Shown here: one piece after another, positions 2,386-63,564 of the stretch | Layout: each line of letters starts with the position of its first letter | How positions within the stretch are numbered: the first letter of the stretch is position 1 | Origin: Octopus sinensis | Lineage: Eukaryota | Assembly: GCF_006345805.1 (NCBI RefSeq) | Contig: NC_043015.1 | Location: 36,456,001 to 36,520,000, forward strand | Length of the DNA stretch: 64,000 bases | Reading direction: 5' to 3' | Program-made: the position numbers and the translations under genes | The notes under the pieces: model-generated | The model's input: only the letters and a program-made list of their open reading frames with translations | Databases searched by the model: none | Told to the model about the DNA's origin: nothing

Positions 2386-5300
2386 ATGTATGTATGTATG
2401 TATGTATGTATGTACGTGTGTGAATATGTACCTCAATGTGTTGTATATGTATTATTTGTATGTTTTTGTAGTATTCGCCTTACCCTCAGGCTATGTTCTG
2501 TTTATTCTATTTCCTTCTTCATATGTCCATTTCCGTATTCCTTTTTCATCCATGTCTGTTCGTCTTCTTTTGTTCTGTTTTGATTACATTCTAGTAATTT
2601 TCCTTAGTGGTTGCCTCCAGCGTGGATATCGATAACGGTACGAAATTGCGCTCGAAACATCCTCGGCCGATAACTGATGAGTTGACCTTCTTTGCTTCTC
2701 CTCCGTTCGTCTCTGCATTCGATGCAATTCCTATTTGTCTTTCCGTCCGTTTGTTTATTATTATACGTGTTTGACTGCTGCAAAAATATATACATGTATG
2801 TATGTATGAATGAGGAAACTTTTTATACAACCATAAAAAGAACTGGGAAATCAACCAAGCTGCGTCAGGGAAGTGGTTAAATTTTGGAAACATCGCATTA
2901 TAAGGACCTCACCTGTTTATGCAGCAACAATTGCGGTGTCATAATGCTCATCTGATCATTTGCGCGTATACATTTGCACGCGCAGACAAACCCTCACACA
3001 CATTAATTCCCTTTAAATAAATTACATAAATGCCAACTGGGGAAGAATGCCTTCACTGAAACCAGCGATGTTTGTTGATGTCTATTTTTCTCTATTTCTT
3101 GTATATCTATATTATTTACTAATAAAATCTCAAGACTTTTGAGAACAGTGCTCGTATGGTACTAACGCTTATCATTTGTCACTCTAACATTTTTGCCATG
3201 GAAACGCGTTTGTGCGCTCATGTCTCTTTTCTCTCTTTGCAGCACAAGTAAAGATTCCAACTTGTTTCAAGCACAAAGAGACGAACAACTTAATGTTGCT
3301 TCTACGCAATATCAGAATTATTTGCCATAAAATAAAACCCTTCTTTACTTTCCTACCATTTAAAGGAGCAATTAAATCGACGAACAATATGCAATCCTTG
3401 ATAAATCATGTGGCTACATTCTCCTTTAAATTCTCCGTTAATTTTTGTTTACTATTATTATACGTATGTTTTTTTTAATCTCTTTCCCGCAGACCAACTC
3501 TGATCGATCCGTTCTATGATTAAAACTATCACACGTGTAACCAAATTATTTCTTTCTCAGGCATAAATTCTCTGACATAAATTCTCCAAAATGTCCTTTT
3601 TTTCAGAGTACAGTGTGATGTTTTGAGAAATATTTGGGAGCTATTATAGCAAGCAGGTTAAGCAATCATGTGTGATCTTCTTTTTAAGCTTAATGTTCGG
3701 GTGTTTCTTTTTGTTGCTTTTGTTGCTGATGTTGTTGCTGTCGTGCTTTCCTTGTTTTGCTCAAAATCAGCTTTGATCGTGCAGATTTGGATCAATGACA
3801 TTCTTGTGCGTGGAAGTCTTTCAAGAAATTAATGGTGGTAATTATTATTATAAATTCATGCTTCACCAGTTCTATGACAGAGAAATGATTAAACACAGCC
3901 TTCCTGAAATATTTTTTTAAAATATATAGAAATGGAAAAGAAATGAAGGCTAGTTGGTTGAAAAAAAATTATGATCAAATATATTTTTGTACAACATTTT
4001 TTAGACACTGCAATATGGAACCTGACCGTAGTTTTGAAAACAATTACACATAATTGAACTAGTTTTTTTAGAATGGAGAGAGTCATGTATAGATTCATTG
4101 TTTAGATTGTTTTATGCCTTTGTCTTGGGATTGAAATTTTCAGTAATTTCTTCCTTGGAATCCTATATATAATAATCAAAGAAAAAAAATTATTGTGTTA
4201 ATTTCTTGTGTGTGTGTGTGTGTATATATCTAATTTGGATAAACAAGTTTTACACTGCAAGTAACTTCATCTAAATTTCATCATTTACATGGCTTCTGAA
4301 AACATTTTATTAATTCTGAAGTATATTTTATGTGTTTGGTGCCTATGCGTCTAAATGTACTGACTGATTGAAGCCACTGTTCATCAGCGCTAATTCATTT
4401 AGTTTTCTATTATTTCGTTGTGTGTGTGTGTGTCTGTGTGTGTGTGTGTGCGTGTATGTGTGTGTGTGTATGTGTGTGTGTGTGTGTATACTCAGAACAA
4501 CGTATTCTATTACAAAATTAATTTAATTTCAAAAATTTGAAGGGTAATTGTAGTAATATAAAGAAATTATTTCTACATTATCTGCTTTCACAAACGTCCC
4601 TCTTCAACTTCCTGATTGAAACGAAATCATTTCTACCAGTCGCCGCCCTCTGCATCTTTCGTCTTCGACGCGTGAACTCAGAGATCTTGAAACTTACGTT
4701 TAATATCAAAGCAATACGAAAGCTGTGGTTTCTCATTTCCCCTATAAATGTGCAAGAATTCTTGGGATCGGAAAGTGACTTGGTATAATCGGTAAAGCAT
4801 CACAGAAAACAACTTGTGATCGTAGATAAAAGCTATTTCGGCTGACAGTTCAATTTCTGCTCAGAGTAGTTAAGCTCTAGCGGCTTAATAGTTTCTTTCA
4901 GTTCAATATAGAAGCGAAGAAACTTGTGACACGTAAGAATTTTCGAACACATTCATAGATCATCGAAGGACAGTATATGAAACCTACGCCAAAAGGCTGT
5001 TTAATGCTTATTAATTTTGCTTATTAGGTTCTCCTCGCCACCCTCACGAACTCAATCTTCTGGCCAATGATATGCTTTAGAGGAGTCTAATGTATAACTG
5101 ATTGGGATCGGCTAAACAGTCTGATGGCAACTTCCTTCCTTTTTCGTTTTTTACTCCTGTGAGTATCGAGTATTCGTAGAAAGATCAAGTTTCCTTTATA
5201 TTTCCAATATGTTTCATTAAACAAAATGGCCATAGTTTCTTTCTTACTTACACCAGTTGAGAGAAATATCAAGTATGACGATCTAACGTAACCTCAGTTG

Positions 5301-36175: not shown

Positions 36176-36178
<3 letters not shown>

Positions 36179-36842
36179 TCCAAAAAACGGAACACGAGCG
36201 TAACAGACGACAGTGCAGACATACGGACAGATGGACAATACAAAGACAGACAAGTAAAACCAGGCCGGAACATTCGTGGCTTTCTATTTATTAGTCAAGC
36301 ATCCAATAATCACTACAGTTTCAGCGTGTTCCACTTGAGATTGTTCAAAATAGGTAGACCCAAAAGTCCAAGAAAGCAGGCGAATATGTGCAGCAACACG
36401 GACAAAATTACAAGAGAACGAAGAAAATGTTACACTATTACAAATACAAACAAGAATAACTACACGTGTCTTTCGACTAAAAGGACAAGTTAAGCTGGCG
36501 TATATACATAGGCAAAGGTGTATGAATAAATATATATATATATTTTTATATGTGAGTGTGTTTGTGTGATTTATATAGCTGTGATGTCTATACGAATGTT
36601 CTTGGACCACAGTAATAACCGTCATCTTTATAACGATCGGTGAATTTTTATCTGACACAAACGATGTCAGCGCTATCTGTGTCTAGTGAAGATACGTGGC
36701 CAAGTGTTTGGCTGCTTGTCTAACGATCATTGGGTACAGGTTCAATGCTCTGGTCGGGCAGAGACTTACTGCCGCATTTAGTCGGTAGGTTTTATTGTGT
36801 GCGTGTGAGTATGTGTGTCTATACAAATATATTCATATACAT

Positions 36843-36923
<81 letters not shown>

Positions 36924-37623
36924 TATATATATAAGTCCAAAAAACGGAACACGAGCGTAACAGACGACAGTGCAGACATACGGACAGATGGACAATACAA
37001 AGACAGACAAGTAAAACCAGGCCGGAACATTCGTGGCTTTCTATTTATTAGTCAAGCATCCAATAATCACTACAGTTTCAGCGTGTTCCACTTGAGATTG
37101 TTCAAAATAGGTAGACCCAAAAGTCCAAGAAAGCAGGCGAATATGTGCAGCAACACGGACAAAATTACAAGAGAACGAAGAAAATGTTACACTATTACAA
37201 ATACAAACAAGAATAACTACACGTGTCTTTCGACTAAAAGGACAAGTTAAGCTGGCGTATATACATAGGCAAAGGTGTATGAATAAATATATATATATAT
37301 TTTTATATGTGAGTGTGTTTGTGTGATTTATATAGCTGTGATGTCTATACGAATGTTCTTGGACCACAGTAATAACCGTCATCTTTATAACGATCGGTGA
37401 ATTTTTATCTGACACAAACGATGTCAGCGCTATCTGTGTCTAGTGAAGATACGTGGCCAAGTGGTTTGGCTGCTTGTCTAACGATCATTGGGTACAGGTT
37501 CAATGCTCTGGTCGGGCAGAGACTTACTGCCGCATTTAGTCGGTAGGTTTTATTGTGTGCGTGTGAGTATGTGTGTCTATACAAATATATTCATATACAT
37601 ATACATACATACACACACACACA

Positions 37624-37673
<50 letters not shown>
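36176..37673. repeat. Near-identical 757-bp tandem duplication bounded by (TA)n
   Basis: 36176-36932 matches 36933-37673, apart from a 1-bp indel and microsatellite differences; ORFs 36284-36658 and 37041-37415 are identical. Confidence 0.97.
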
Positions 37674-37681
<8 letters not shown>

Positions 37682-38036
37682 TATCTTTATTGCTGAAAAG
37701 AAAGAAACTGCAGTCTGAGAATTACCGGTTTAGTAAATGTTTTTATCTTCATTTCACTTAATTTATCAAGCTTCTGTATTCCTAGCACATATTTCGCCTT
37801 AATGTACTGATATATGAAAAATATATGGCTTGTGTTAGTAATACCAGCGATTATAATTATTTTTATTTTATCGCAATTTGATTTGTTTACATATTTCTCG
37901 ATAAATTATGAGCGCCAGGCGATATACCAGAATTCCCTAGTGTTGTCGGGATGTTCGGAGTCTGCGCAGTGATATGATTAGTTAGGGAGAGTAAATCATT
38001 AGACGCACATGCTTCTAGTGAGTTAGGATCCCGGAA

Positions 38037-38127
38037 AAACAGGGTCTCACTGAAGAATTCTCCCTAAGCAAATAAATTATCTTTATTGATGAAAAGAAAG
38101 AAACTGCAGTCTGAGAATTACCGGTTT
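38037..38127 (+). ncRNA. Type I hammerhead ribozyme, copy 1 (predicted cleavage after C38111)
   Basis: Stem I TCTCA(38045-49)/TGAGA(38112-16); core CTGAAGA 38050-56; GAAAC-TGCA-GTC 38100-38111; long stem II. Confidence 0.75.
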
Positions 38128-38431
38128 AGTAAATGTTTTTATCTTCATTTCACTTAATTATCAAGCTTCTGTATTCCTAGCACATATTTCGCCTTAATGT
38201 ACTGATATATGAAAAATATATGGCTTGTGTTAGTAATACCAGCGATTATAATTATTTTTATTTTATCGCAATTTGATTTGTTTACATATTTCTCGATAAA
38301 TTATGAGCGCCAGGCGATATACCAGAATTCCCTAGTGTTGTCGGGACGTTCGGAGTCTGCGCAGTGATATGATTAGTTAGGGAGAGTAAATCATTAGACG
38401 CACATGCTTCTAGTGAGTTAGGATCCCAGAA

Positions 38432-38522
38432 AAACAGGGTCTCACTGAAGAATTCTCCCTGAGCAAATAAATTGTCTTTATTGCTGAAAAGAAAGAAACT
38501 GCAGTCTGAGAATTACCGGTTT
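38432..38522 (+). ncRNA. Type I hammerhead ribozyme, copy 2 (cleavage after C38506)
   Basis: Core CTGAAGA 38445-51; GAAACTGCAGTC 38495-38506. Confidence 0.75.
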
Positions 38523-38824
38523 AGTAAATGTTTTTATCTTCATTTCACTTAATTTATCAAGCTTCTGTATTCCTAGCACATATTCGCCTTAATGTACTGA
38601 TATATGAAAAATATATGGCTTGTGTAGTAATACCAGCGATTATAATTATTTTTATTTTATCGCAATTGATTTGTTTACATATTTCTCGATAAATTATGAG
38701 CGGCAGGCGATATACCAGAATTCCCTAGTGTTGTCGGGACGTTCGGAGTCTGCGCAGTGATATGATTAGTTAGGGAGAGTAAATCATTAGACGCACATGC
38801 TTCTAGTGAGTTAGGATCCCAGAA

Positions 38825-38915
38825 AAACAGGGTCTCACTGAAGAATTCTCCCTGAGCAAATAAATTATCTTTATTGATGAAAAGAAAGAAACTGCAGTCT
38901 GAGAATTACCGGTTT
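38825..38915 (+). ncRNA. Type I hammerhead ribozyme, copy 3 (cleavage after C38899)
   Basis: Core CTGAAGA 38838-44; GAAACTGCAGTC 38888-38899. Confidence 0.75.
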
Positions 38916-39219
38916 AGTAAATGTTTTTATCTTCATTTCACTTAATTTATCAAGCTTCTGTATTCCTAGCACATATTTCGCCTTAATGTACTGATATATG
39001 AAAAATATATGGCTTGTGTTAGTAATACAGCGATTATAATTATCTTTATTTTATCGCAATTTGATTTGTTTACATATTTCTCGATAAATTATGAGCGGCA
39101 GGCGATATACCAGAATTCCCTAGTGTTGTCGGGACGTTCGGAGTCTGCGCAGTGATATGATTAGTTAGGGAGAGTAAATCATTAGACGCACATGCTTCTA
39201 GTGAGTTAGGATCCCAGAA

Positions 39220-39309
39220 AAACAGGGTCTCACTGAAGAATTCTCCTGAGCAAATAAATTATCTTTATTGATGAAAAGAAAGAAACTGCAGTCTGAGAAT
39301 TACCGGTTT
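39220..39309 (+). ncRNA. Type I hammerhead ribozyme, copy 4 (cleavage after C39293)
   Basis: Core CTGAAGA 39233-39; GAAACTGCAGTC 39282-39293. Confidence 0.75.
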
Positions 39310-39614
39310 AGTAAATGTTTTTATCTTCATTTCACTTAATTTATCAAGCTTCTGTATTCCTAGCACATATTTCGCCTTAATGTACTGATATATGAAAAAT
39401 ATATGGCTTGTGTTAGTAATACCAGCGATTATAATTATTTTTATTTTATCGCAATTTGATTTGTTTACATATTTCTCGATAAATTATGAGCGCCAGGCGA
39501 TATACCAGAATTCCCTAGTGTTGTCGGGACGTTCGGAGTCTGCGCAGTGATATGATTAGTTAGGGAGAGTAAATCATTAGACGCACATGCTTCTAGTGAG
39601 TTAGGATCCCAGAA

Positions 39615-39705
39615 AAACAGGGTCTCACTGAAGAATTCTCCCTGAGCAAATAAATTATCTTTATTGCTGAAAAGAAGGAAACTGCAGTCTGAGAATTACC
39701 GGTTT
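39615..39705 (+). ncRNA. Type I hammerhead ribozyme, copy 5 (cleavage after C39689)
   Basis: Core CTGAAGA 39628-34; GAAACTGCAGTC 39678-39689. Confidence 0.75.
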
Positions 39706-41967
39706 AGTAAATGTTTTTATCTTCATTTCACTTAATTTATCAAGCTTCTGTATTCCTAGCACATATTTCGCCTTAATGTACTGATATATGAAAAATATAT
39801 GGCTTGTGTTAGTAATACCAGCGATTATAATTAGTTTTATTTTATCGCAATTTGATTTGTTTATATATATATATATTATATATATATATATATATATGGA
39901 GAGAGAGAGAGAGAGAGAGAGAGTTAGCAGTTATAACAATCGACTGAGGAATAAAAAATTCCGTATAACCATCGAAATCCGTTACTCATGTTATCTCTGG
40001 GCATGGGTATGCAGGCACACTGGTAGAGTGCAGGTAACAACAAAATAAACCAAAGTTTATCAGGAAACAAATATAAATGATCAGAAAATGTGGAAAACCT
40101 CAGATCAAGAAACTCGTCAATTGGTCCACATTAATACAAAACAACATTTATGTGTCAGAATAAATCTTGCGGCTGTTTCCACAGCCGATGCCAATCAATG
40201 TCTATAAATAATTCCTGAAATAAATTCATCATCTTCATAGGACATACGAACCAGGGCACGGAGCTTCATCAAACTAAAACAAAAGCATCCAAAATAAACG
40301 AAAGGAAGAAGGTGAAAAGAAAACATGGCCTAGAAAAGAATTCTGGAAGCCCGAAATATTTAAAGCATATAATCTAGTATCTTGGGGCTACGAATTTTGT
40401 AGGTAAGAGAGCGAACTAGTATTGTTCTAGGGAGCTAAAAAATATTTTTACGGGTAACCAAGATATTTTAAATGTTATGAAAAGAATGAAAAAACAAGGA
40501 AACTCGCTAACACGGCTATCAAATGGCGTTACCTCTGTAAACGAAAAAAACTCAGGTATAATGTATCCAAAACATTACCGTAGGGTGCTTAAAATAATGT
40601 ACCCAGAGAAATATTACAGAGAGCCCCACCTATTGTCCGAAATAGGACCGGTTTAAGTCCAGCGATCCCAACAATTGGTCAATTATATTTCAACCGAGGA
40701 CATAAGTTAAAACCGTTTCAACGGACAAAGATGAAAATAAATACCAAAATAAGAAAAGGGTACGATGGATAAGACAATGATATGAACAGTACAGGGTCAC
40801 CAGTGTCCTATTGCAGGCAGCTTATCGATATAACATGCATGGGAAAAAACGGTCAAATGGGCACAAGATTAAATTTATAGTTAAGGGGAGACAACTAGTA
40901 CAGGTATTACACCGAATCCATATAATCTGCTAGAAATAATATTGGACTTAACATCATATATAGCAAATTATGGTAATAATTTGATCCAAACAGGTAACAA
41001 AAATATTTCTGTCTTTTAGGCACACTACAATGCACAATCATAAAACCACTAACATTTAAGCGGTTAATATTTAAGACCGAATCTCATGTTATTTCTTATC
41101 ATGAATATAATTCTCAAGTTCAAACAGTATAGTAAATACGTCCAACAAGCATTATCATTATTGTTAAAGTTAGATGGTTGATATCATTTAATGATAGCAA
41201 CTATCCAACTTTAATGATAATGTAATACTTTTTATAAATATTTCAAAATTATGATGCTATGATACTAAGTGTTTACATTATTTTGTCTGAAATTTGTATA
41301 TATACGAATGTCTTTTGACAGTTGTATTTTATTTCCACAAGTATATATCAAATTTTTTGCCTCGTAGATACTTCTTTGTTGTTTTTCTTTCGTGTACTTT
41401 ATTTTCTCAAATAATAAAAGTTTCTTTTGTACCATATATGCCAACCCCTTTTCTTTTTTGCAGACTTTCAGCTCAAAACAACGACGTGAGAAGACAGAGG
41501 GAAAGAAATAAGAAAATGCGTCTTTAACGTAGAGAGTGTGATGACGTATGGATATGCAGAGCGACATATGTATATATATATATGCATGCACATAAACATA
41601 CACACACAAATTGGTATATTTATAAATATATTTATGGTTATATATATATATACGCATGTGTGTGTGTATAGGTATGAATATGTCTATATGAAATTAAATT
41701 TATATATGTTTATATATGTGTATATATATGCGTATGTGTGTGAGTGTGTGTATCTATATATAAGTAAATATCCATATATATATATAATATATATATATAT
41801 ATCATGTATCTTGAAAGATAAATATTGATACATACATACATACATATATATATATATATACATCTACAGGTATATATATGTATATATATGCACATGCACA
41901 CATATACAGGCACGCATACACACATAGATATATACATACATGCATGTATGTCTACGAGGTGCGCATA

Positions 41968-52434: not shown

Positions 52435-52792
52435 GTACGTATGTATTTATGTACAAGGAGTACTGAAGATTTGCATACTTTAAGTGTATCGTAAAAGGCC
52501 TGGCTGGACGCCCAAACTTCCGAGTTCTTAGTAAAGCTGAAAGACAGCAGCAATAAGTGTGTAAATCTGAGACAGGAATACATTGGATAAAAATCATAAT
52601 TACCTGATCATCCTCTATCTTCGTTTACCGAAAGCCAGGAACTTTTCATCAACCCCACGTTTATATATATATGTTATTATTATTATTGTTTTGTATTATT
52701 TTTCTATTCATATTCGTGTAACATTGTCCGTTTTCCAGTCCTTGTTTCGTATACATTCGAAGCTTTTTTCCACTAAATCTAATGCTTTTAGC

Positions 52793-52960
52793 TTAATTTT
52801 TCCTTGGGGCTGGCCAGATTGGAGCAATCTCAAGATTAATCAGCCGAAATTGCGAAGATGATCCGGTTCTTGCCTGAAGATTAAAGGCTTCGAATGACCC
52901 GTCTTTGTTTTTTGCATCTTCTATTTGGATGTTTTTCCTTCTTGTCACATTTTGTATTTA
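52793..52960 (+). repeat. (TA)n-adjacent repeat end related to the minus strand of 36176-36370
   Basis: Collinear CAATCTCAAG..GC.GAAA.TG...CTTG.CT.A..A..AAAG...CGAATG..CCG.C..GTTTT, followed by a pyrimidine-rich tail and (TA)n. Confidence 0.65.
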
Positions 52961-61832: not shown

Positions 61833-62772
61833 ACATATTTTTGTGTGTGTGTGTATGTGTGTGTGTGTCAGTATGTTTATATATATATATATATCGGCAC
61901 GTTTTAAGTTTCACACGGATTTGTTGATGTGTATGTATATGTCGATAAGCGTATGTGTCTAAATGTATCTGTATGTTCGTGTGTGTGCGCTTGATTGTGT
62001 GTGTACATGTGCGTGTGCATACGCCTGTGTGTTTGTATGTGTGTGTACTTGTGTTGTATGGAACATATGCCAAACTAGTTTTGATTTGCGGCATCACAAA
62101 ATCCCAATCAATACAGCTCCATGAAATGAAATATCCCACAATTAAATCGATCGATTATTTTGTTTATCCTTTTGTTAAAATGTGGTGAGGTTTTAATGTT
62201 TTCTCGTTCTTTGAAGCAATTCCTATCATTTCTCATTCGAGCTACTAGTTTGCTCTATTAGAATTGTATAATGTAACAGTTCTACTGTAAAATCTCTGTC
62301 CATGTATATTTATACGTAACGTAATATATATAGATATATAAATTCCTCTTTCAATTTGTAATCGTAGGTTTTCCATTTACCCAAAACAATGTAATTCTGC
62401 GATCGTAGAAACAAACTTACATAGACGTCACCACATGCGAACAAAAACAAATTCACGCACACATATCTATACACACACACACATATCTATACACACGCAC
62501 ATATCTATACTCTATACCCAAACAAAGTGAATTAAATTAAATTTAACAACACGTCTTTTATTTTGACATAATTCGTTTTAAGCCTATTTACTGGATGTGG
62601 TTAAAAATATCGCTTTGCTGCCTTCTGGGATTTGGGTCCAGTTTTACAGGTCAGTAATTTGGTCAAGTGTCTTCTACTGCTGCCCAGGGCGGTCCAATGC
62701 TTTGCGAATGAGCGTAATTGACGAAGACTATGCGGAAGCCCGTCCTACATATATATATATATATATATATAT

Positions 62773-62931
62773 GTAGGTCCCGGGTTGAGTCGGGGTTAAC
62801 CACAGTTCTAGTCCTGTAGAAGCTCCTTCTATAAAATATATATATTATATATATATATATTATATATATATGTAGGTCCCGGGTTGAGTCGGGGTTAACC
62901 ACAGTTCTAGTCCTGTAGAAGCTCCTTCTAT

Positions 62932-62935
<4 letters not shown>
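62773..62935. repeat. Identical 64-bp module twice, separated and flanked by (TA)n
   Basis: GTAGGTCCCGGGTTGAGTCGGGGTTAACC...CTTCTATAAAA at 62773-62836 and 62872-62935. Confidence 0.95.
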
Positions 62936-62992
<57 letters not shown>

Positions 62993-63451: not shown

Positions 63452-63564
63452 TGGTTGAGCTGGTGCGTTGGTTGAGCTGGTGCGTTGGTTGAGCTGGTGC
63501 GTTGGTTGAGCTGGTGCGTTGGTTGAGCTGGTGCGTTGGTTGAGCTGGTGCGTTGGTTGAGCTG
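63452..63564. repeat. Perfect 17-bp minisatellite (TGGTTGAGCTGGTGCGT), 6.6 copies
   Basis: Units start at 63452, 63469, 63486, 63503, 63520, 63537 and 63554 (partial). Confidence 0.97.

What the first reader, a model, noticed from the sequence alone, without database searches (positions are those of the whole stretch)
52824..52889. Hammerhead-like strands in a non-circularly permuted order (A-C-B) at a (TA)n-adjacent repeat end, with covariation between copies
Seen at 52824 (+): GCAA-TC^TCAAGA ttaatca GCC-GAAA-TTGC [14 nt] TCTTGc-CTGAAGA ttaaa GGC. Seen on the minus strand of 36279-36344 and 37036-37101: ACAA-TC^TCAAGT ggaacac GCT-GAAA-cTGT [14 nt] GCTTGA-CTaATaA atagaa AGC. All three hammerhead strands are present: A = stem III-UH-stem I, C = stem II-GAAA-stem III, B = stem I-CUGANGA-stem II. 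Their order is A-C-B, which is none of types I, II or III. Pair-preserving changes occur in each putative stem (G-C/A-T, A-T/T-G, GCC:GGC/GCT:AGC). Inference: a pseudoknotted hammerhead topology, or assembly between tandem copies; the distal ends of stems I and II are close in 3D, so a 7-nt linker is plausible. Caveats: there are only two independent, decayed copies, each with mismatches. A 5-6-nt insert after A9 is non-canonical, and a simple hairpin (ATC/GAT versus CAC/GTG) also covaries.
Basis: inference. Interest (0 to 1): 0.72.

Follow-up and report, generated by a model that had tools for sequence, protein, structure and literature searches.

The report
Core-split knotted hammerhead in Naiad retroelements
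This stretch is a worn copy of an RNA fold, present in thousands of jumping-gene copies in this animal genome, that has every part of the self-cutting hammerhead ribozyme in a scrambled order with two extra helices set into its catalytic core; it likely cuts the element's RNA, and the same fold, read by eye, ends several published Naiad retrotransposons that were reported to lack the usual hammerhead.

Summary
The motif is real. It belongs to a dispersed, (TA)n-flanked, non-coding repeat, and its core order matches 14,149 times in G000 against 672 for the control. The order cleavage strand, GAAA strand, CUGANGA strand is the known type-SGC order (PMC10085705). A9 is therefore not joined to N10.1. 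The gap is bridged by a closing helix after A9 and a hairpin before N10.1, which covary in one family group but are only conserved in the window's group. A stem I-II brace helix also covaries. By eye, published Naiad consensus 3' ends show the same layout or intact type CSG. In the window's family 78 insertions start exactly at the predicted cut; two sister families do not show this. Cleavage is untested and the window copies are damaged. Verdict: a new hammerhead topology variant, probably the missing Naiad ribozyme.

The parts
52670..52958 (+). 5'-truncated copy of a non-coding repeat (window family) between (TA)n runs
   Evidence: (2,799 first-look candidates, 40 scored, about 91% identity)
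52754..52767 (+). 5' strand of closing helix IV (pairs with 52883-52896; 14 pairs, one G-U)
   Evidence: conserved but no covariation beyond shuffles in this group; covaries in the other group
52768..52807 (+). Hairpin V, ending right before N10.1; damaged in this copy (-1.9 kcal/mol)
52808..52813 (+). 5' strand of stem II (G10.1 at 52808), upstream of the cleavage strand
52814..52819 (+). 5' strand of the brace helix (equivalent of the stem I-II interaction helix of type SGC); one mismatch in this copy
52822..52823 (+). GA of a predicted kink-turn (partner GA at 52857-52858 after a 3-nt bulge) between stem III and the brace helix
   Evidence: both adenines invariant in 22 of 22 rows; the pattern is recalled from k-turn consensus
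52824..52835 (+). Cleavage strand: stem III 5' strand, AUC triplet (predicted cut after 52829), stem I 5' strand
   Evidence: insertion starts at this site
52840..52853 (+). Stem II 3' strand, GAAA (52846-52849), stem III 3' strand
52861..52866 (+). 3' strand of the brace helix
52868..52880 (+). Stem I 3' strand and CUGAAGA core (52874-52880); the pair next to the core is broken in this copy
52883..52896 (+).
36177..36500 (-). Decayed copy of a sister family; motif at 36279-36344 with two core substitutions and hairpin V deleted
36934..37257 (-). Identical duplicate of the previous copy inside a 757-bp duplication (motif 37036-37101)

Best explanation
The stretch is a decayed copy of a conserved, pseudoknotted RNA fold with all hammerhead core motifs in non-circular order and stem II supplied from upstream, carried by tandem non-coding repeats that are likely non-autonomous Penelope-like (Naiad-type) elements, and it likely self-cleaves after NUH. 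The 5'-to-3' order is: helix IV 5' strand, hairpin V, stem II 5' strand, brace strand, cleavage strand (III-UH-I), GAAA strand (II-GAAA-III), brace strand, stem I strand with CUGANGA, helix IV 3' strand. Shown by covariation: stems I, II, III and the brace helix; helices IV and V in one family group. Inferred: IV and V hold A9 next to G10.1 in place of the backbone link, and a kink-turn folds stem III back onto the brace. Inferred: cutting tandem transcripts gives unit RNAs; uncut or re-closed RNA primed about 100 nt downstream on (TA)n targets gives partial tandem copies, while cut RNA gives short copies that start at the cut. The protein is inferred to come from an autonomous Naiad.
For: Pattern excess of 14,149 vs 672. 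On alignment A3 (22 copies), the four-helix model has 89.0% of cells paired, 17 of 22 pairs with double changes, 0 of 500 shuffles, and slid controls 17-49%. On A5 (23 copies of distant families), 90.1% paired and 16 of 24 pairs; helices IV and V alone 84.7% vs 74.5% shuffled, 0 of 500. An upstream stem II partner of 5 bp or more in 22 of 37 families vs 8.6% of 1,180 swaps; brace helix -7.1 vs -3.9 kcal/mol. Both k-turn adenines invariant in 22 of 22. A non-coding 776-base unit in partial tandem between (TA)n, and an inverted 5' segment in L286, both hallmarks described for Penelope-like elements. Naiads target (TA)n, lack canonical hammerheads and are marked 'HHR_half_core'. By eye, 9 of their consensus 3' ends show this layout, and the octopus Naiad motif has 397 exact matches vs 0 in G000. 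78 copies begin exactly at the predicted cut. Counted by hand over C1 to C6:69.85 Mb: 22 at the cut vs 41 spread over 23 upstream positions, at most 5-6 at one position and 2 at the neighbouring TC.
Against: No cleavage assay. In two sister families 0 of 30 junction loci start at the cut, with only a weak step downstream of it (counted by hand; the pattern sees only junctions ending in T). In the window's group, helices IV and V are conserved but do not covary beyond shuffles (77.0% vs 76.1%, 116 of 500), and the duplex swap test is modest (-9.9 vs -8.2). Some families also offer a G-U-rich 4-5-bp stem II right after A9 (14 of 37 at 4 bp or more). No coding partner was found upstream of the window's family in my loci, so the Naiad link for it rests on shared topology and target, and earlier notes tie the same fold to HERO LINEs as well. 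Distant families were found with a pattern that demands the core, and alignment rows were picked by me from copies passing a stem I/III filter. In another Penelope-like element, hammerhead cutting was not needed for insertion in vitro (PMC11167929, passages).
Confidence: 0.76

Rival explanations
1. Ordinary type-SGC hammerhead with stem II formed by bases just after CUGANGA; the upstream strand is a competing, regulatory pairing.
For: The downstream helix is 71.6% paired with some covariation (1 of 500 for the score). 14 of 37 families have 4 bp or more directly after A9. Type SGC is proven to cleave.
Against: The pair next to G12 is broken in 13 of 22. Downstream matches are mostly G-U. The upstream strand follows every change of the 3' strand across unrelated families, and the brace strand follows it directly, as it follows stem II in type SGC. 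The downstream bases are used in helix IV.
Confidence: 0.06
2. A hammerhead-derived structure that no longer cuts on its own, or cuts only with the element's protein, and serves as the binding or priming signal for the reverse transcriptase.
For: No assay here. A Poseidon hammerhead cut only with its protein, and cutting was dispensable for insertion. Most long copies run through the cut site. No start peak in two families.
Against: All catalytic positions are kept across unrelated families and, by eye, across phyla. There is a start peak at the cut in the window's family.
Confidence: 0.14
3. The fold assembles between two tandem units or in trans, not within one copy.
For: Tandem units are common, and dimeric cutting is known for Penelope-like hammerheads (review passages).
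Against: All six helices close within one unit of about 145 bases with long stable stems. The known reason for dimers, a very short stem III loop, does not apply.
Confidence: 0.04

Closest known systems
Type-SGC hammerhead (HRIMA-1 and variants; Eckert et al. 2023, PMC10085705; read parts 1-6 of 8 of the main text, supplements not seen)
   Same: Order cleavage block, GAAA block, CUGANGA block; short link from stem I to stem II; a fourth helix bracing stems I and II; all core nucleotides.
   Different: There CUGANGA and the stem II strand are one unbroken block (the authors allow at most 1-2 inserted bases), and it was found only in metatranscriptomes. Here the block is opened, with two added helices, in an animal genome in thousands of copies.
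Type-CSG hammerhead (same paper; two metagenomic sequences)
   Same: Same cyclic strand order. By eye, six Naiad consensus records, including Naiad-1, -2 and -3_Nbra, carry an intact CSG form.
   Different: The chain is opened after the GAAA block and the A9-N10.1 link is intact.
Naiad Penelope-like elements (Craig et al. 2021, PMC8557442; passages, metadata table and search hits in the consensus file seen)
   Same: (TA)n targets, partial tandem and inverted copies, 'HHR_core/half_core' at the 3' end; the octopus Naiad 3' motif occurs in G000.
   Different: The window's family is non-coding (unit of about 776 bases) with no shown sequence link to a Naiad ORF. The paper found no fold for the half-cores.
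Non-LTR retrozymes (PMC7229834, passages; bioRxiv 10.64898/2026.07.22.740005, passages)
   Same: Non-coding tandem units with one hammerhead each, tied to Penelope-like elements.
   Different: They carry type I hammerheads in units of about 170-400 nt. Circular RNA was shown for them and is untested here.

Membership tests
Hammerhead ribozyme | CUGANGA, GAAA and NUH core | tested here: met
   All three intact in 25 of 30, 12 of 29 and 17 of 28 homology-collected copies; the majority in each family is intact. The minus copies in the window are mutated.
Hammerhead ribozyme | Stems I, II and III flanking the core | tested here: met
   (each 92-96% paired, with double changes)
Hammerhead ribozyme | Self-cleavage after NUH | not testable with these tools
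   Indirect only: start peak in one family, none in two others
Types I, II, III | Circular strand order, three-way junction without pseudoknot | tested here: not met
   The order is S-G-C
Type SGC (Eckert 2023) | Block order S, G, C | tested here: met
Type SGC (Eckert 2023) | Helix bracing stems I and II | tested here: met
   78.8% paired, 5 of 6 pairs with double changes; -7.1 vs -3.9 kcal/mol
Type SGC (Eckert 2023) | Unbroken block C (stem II strand directly after CUGANGA) | tested here: not met
Naiad Penelope-like element | ORF with N-terminal GIY-YIG and C-terminal RT | tested here: not met
   The window family unit is non-coding. Loci with the published Naiad motif hold only decayed frames, RT-end-like by eye.
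Naiad Penelope-like element | (TA)n targets, partial tandem and inverted copies | tested here: met
Non-LTR retrozyme | Type I hammerhead in each tandem unit | tested here: not met
   One motif per unit, but not type I
Non-LTR retrozyme | Expression as linear and circular unit RNA | not testable with these tools
   Only contigs of runs not on record as RNA were offered
Kink-turn (consensus recalled) | 3-nt bulge followed by tandem G-A/A-G pairs | tested here: inconclusive
   The pattern is present in 40 of 51, 22 of 34 and 23 of 25 copies of three groups, but in this register only 2 of 33 and 1 of 21 of two others; no 3D test

The most novel reading that the evidence does not exclude
A seventh natural hammerhead wiring, outside the six block orders thought possible: the catalytic core is opened between A9 and G10.1 and rebuilt by two extra helices, braced by a kink-turn. 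It is the general ribozyme of Naiad retrotransposons from corals to octopuses, active in vivo, and nematode Naiads keep the related intact CSG form, so one element clade records how the permutation arose.
Probability: 0.62. Interest if true: 0.88.

Novelty: new variant of a known kind. Interest (0 to 1): 0.8.

Why it matters
It would overturn the assumption that CUGANGA and stem II must be one strand, on which the list of six possible hammerhead permutations rests. It would explain why Naiad retrotransposons seemed to lack a hammerhead, and move non-circular hammerheads from rare environmental RNAs to thousands of copies in animal genomes. It makes testable whether these elements cut and circularise their RNA, and it offers a new place to insert helices for ribozyme engineering.

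Tried and rejected
A type I reading (upstream strand preceded by a decayed CUGANGA): no such core upstream in any family. A first test of helix IV was negative (-4.2 vs -4.1 kcal/mol) because it used only 20 upstream bases; repeated with 72 bases. A young RT/C-terminal GIY-YIG family near some copies is not the parent: none of 20 loci picked for long ORFs has the motif at the ORF's 3' end, and one has a motif about 2 kb upstream; Pfam gave no hit for two of its frames. A GIY-YIG fragment upstream in L286 is separated from the motif by unrelated repeats. Sequencing runs: no RNA holder listed; contigs of four runs were uninformative, since breaks near the cut site match sister-family sequence. 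A HERO-type ORF upstream of my loci was not seen in 53 frames, of which the 25 longest were read by eye and none family-scanned. Hammann et al. 2012 was not held. Rows dropped: 4 singleton clusters, 4 of 41 truncated or deleted families, 40 of 171 copies.

Full report
Observation. The described letters are present at all three places. The plus and minus copies are homologous; the two minus copies are one copy duplicated with its flanks. G000 is a 2.7-Gb animal genome, likely an octopus, judged from exact matches to a published octopus Naiad motif. Homology searches gave 2,799, 522 and 1,280 first-look candidates for three families, with 40 scored each. A core-order pattern matched 14,149 times against 672 for its control, and a shorter-spaced one 7,353 against 1,583. 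In homology-collected copies all three core motifs are intact in 25 of 30, 12 of 29 and 17 of 28.

Structure. Copies were picked by core plus stems I and III only: 171 distinct copies, 41 families after dropping 4 singleton clusters. The strand before GAAA finds its partner 19-27 bases upstream of the cleavage triplet, for example GGCUG/CAGCC, GGCCU/AGGCC, GGACA/UGUCC, GAGCA/UGCUC, GAAGG/CCUUC and GACAC/GUGUC. That partner has 5 bp or more in 22 of 37 families against 8.6% of 1,180 swaps; the downstream window reaches 8 of 37, mostly through G-U pairs. On a MAFFT alignment of 22 copies, the model with upstream stem II, a brace helix and stems I and III is 89.0% paired, with 17 of 22 pairs changing on both sides and 0 of 500 shuffles as high. 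A second alignment of 23 copies from distant families gives 90.1% and 16 of 24. These shuffles ignore relatedness, but slid controls fall to 17-49%.

The opened core. A9 is not followed by stem II. Folding 72 upstream bases with 26 downstream bases shows a hairpin (V) ending right before G10.1 and a helix (IV) that closes onto the bases after A9: 6 or more inter-strand pairs in 105 of 131 copies, and hairpin z<=-2 in 17 of 33 clusters. IV and V covary in the distant families (84.7% vs 74.5%, 0 of 500). In the window's group they are conserved but not beyond shuffles (77.0% vs 76.1%), and the duplex swap test is modest (-9.9 vs -8.2 kcal/mol). In the window's plus copy IV has 14 pairs, V is damaged, and the stem I pair next to the core is broken. 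A kink-turn pattern between stem III and the brace, a lead from earlier notes, has both adenines invariant in 22 of 22 rows and is present in three of five larger groups in the register tested.

The element. Copies share a 3' end about 100 bases after the motif at (TA)n and have variable 5' ends. L135 holds a truncated copy plus two near-identical non-coding units of 776-777 bases; L286 has an inverted 5' segment. These match the layout described for Penelope-like elements. A young family with C-terminal GIY-YIG does not carry the motif. Craig et al. 2021 report that Naiads target (TA)n, lack canonical hammerheads and often have an unexplained core or half-core. Reading passages of their consensus file by eye (54 records; only search hits seen), I found the split layout with IV and V in 9 records: three Acropora, two Octopus, and four identified only by file part (9, 12, 12, 19). 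It is weaker in 2 more. An intact type-CSG form appears in 6 records, including the three Nippostrongylus ones. Several other hits, in parts 16-19, fitted neither. These readings were not computed. The octopus motif has 397 exact matches in G000 against 0, with decayed upstream frames. No coding partner was found for the window's own family.

Footprint of cleavage. If cut RNA is copied to its end, insertions should start at the cut. In the window's family 78 copies join (TA)n directly to the first base after AUC. Over the same genomic span I counted by hand 22 such starts against 41 starts spread over 23 upstream positions, 2 of them at the neighbouring TC that has better microhomology. In a first list of 28 loci, 25 start at or just after the cut and 3 before it. 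The downstream bases are AT-rich, which favours joins there. In two sister families 0 of 30 loci start at the cut, 12 start after it (3 unclear) and 18 before. The footprint is therefore suggestive only. Read data were uninformative.

Comparison with what is known. Eckert et al. 2023 proved that type SGC and CSG hammerheads cleave, found them only in environmental data, and derived six possible orders by assuming CUGANGA and its stem II strand cannot be separated. This fold has the SGC order and brace but fails that feature, so it works like type SGC without being a member. One-base insertions after A9 occur in listed Hydra-clade hammerheads; that the site lies on the surface of the 3D fold is recalled, not tested. 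I found no description of the split form in searches, or in passages of PMC13725137, PMC10162972, PMC6765202, PMC7229834, PMC11167929, PMC13159263 and two preprints. Subscription papers, Repbase and the Eckert supplements were not seen, and PMC13725137 mentions variants with additional helices that I could not trace. Earlier notes of this scan reach the same reading in this and other genomes and add HERO LINEs as carriers; they are not independent evidence.

Verdict. A real, strongly covarying structure and a new variant of the hammerhead, probably self-cleaving and probably the missing Naiad ribozyme. The window's copies are decayed. Confidence in the fold is about 0.9, in the whole mechanism 0.76; interest 0.8.

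Noticed in passing
window 37674-39868: Tandem array of 5.6 copies of a 395-base unit, 98% matches, bounded by (TA)n; not the hammerhead family.
   Followed up: no
window about 36177-37690: A 757-base duplication with a 530-base identical run including unique flank: a very recent tandem duplication or an assembly artefact.
   Followed up: partly
L201-L220, e.g. L201 3213-5930 (+): Young retroelement family with open frames of about 860-920 aa; RT and C-terminal GIY-YIG motifs by eye, resembling the Hydra clade; 8,804 first-look candidates; no Pfam hit for two fragments.
   Followed up: partly
L286 about 3930-3980 (-): End of a Hydra-type element with a hammerhead-like motif matching the row listed for Hydra-1_oBim.
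   Followed up: no
L052 1500-2480 (+): Tandem chimeras in which the upstream half of one family is joined near the cleavage site to the downstream half of another, leaving stem II unmatched; may reflect a template switch or ligation at the cut.
   Followed up: partly
PMC8557442 supplement, Naiad consensus file parts 13-16: Six records, three of them nematode by header, carry intact type-CSG hammerheads by eye; this type was known from two metagenomic sequences.
   Followed up: partly
window 62749-62972 and 63452-63564: A 99-base unit between (TA)n runs repeated 2.2 times, and a perfect 17-base tandem of 6.6 copies.
   Followed up: no
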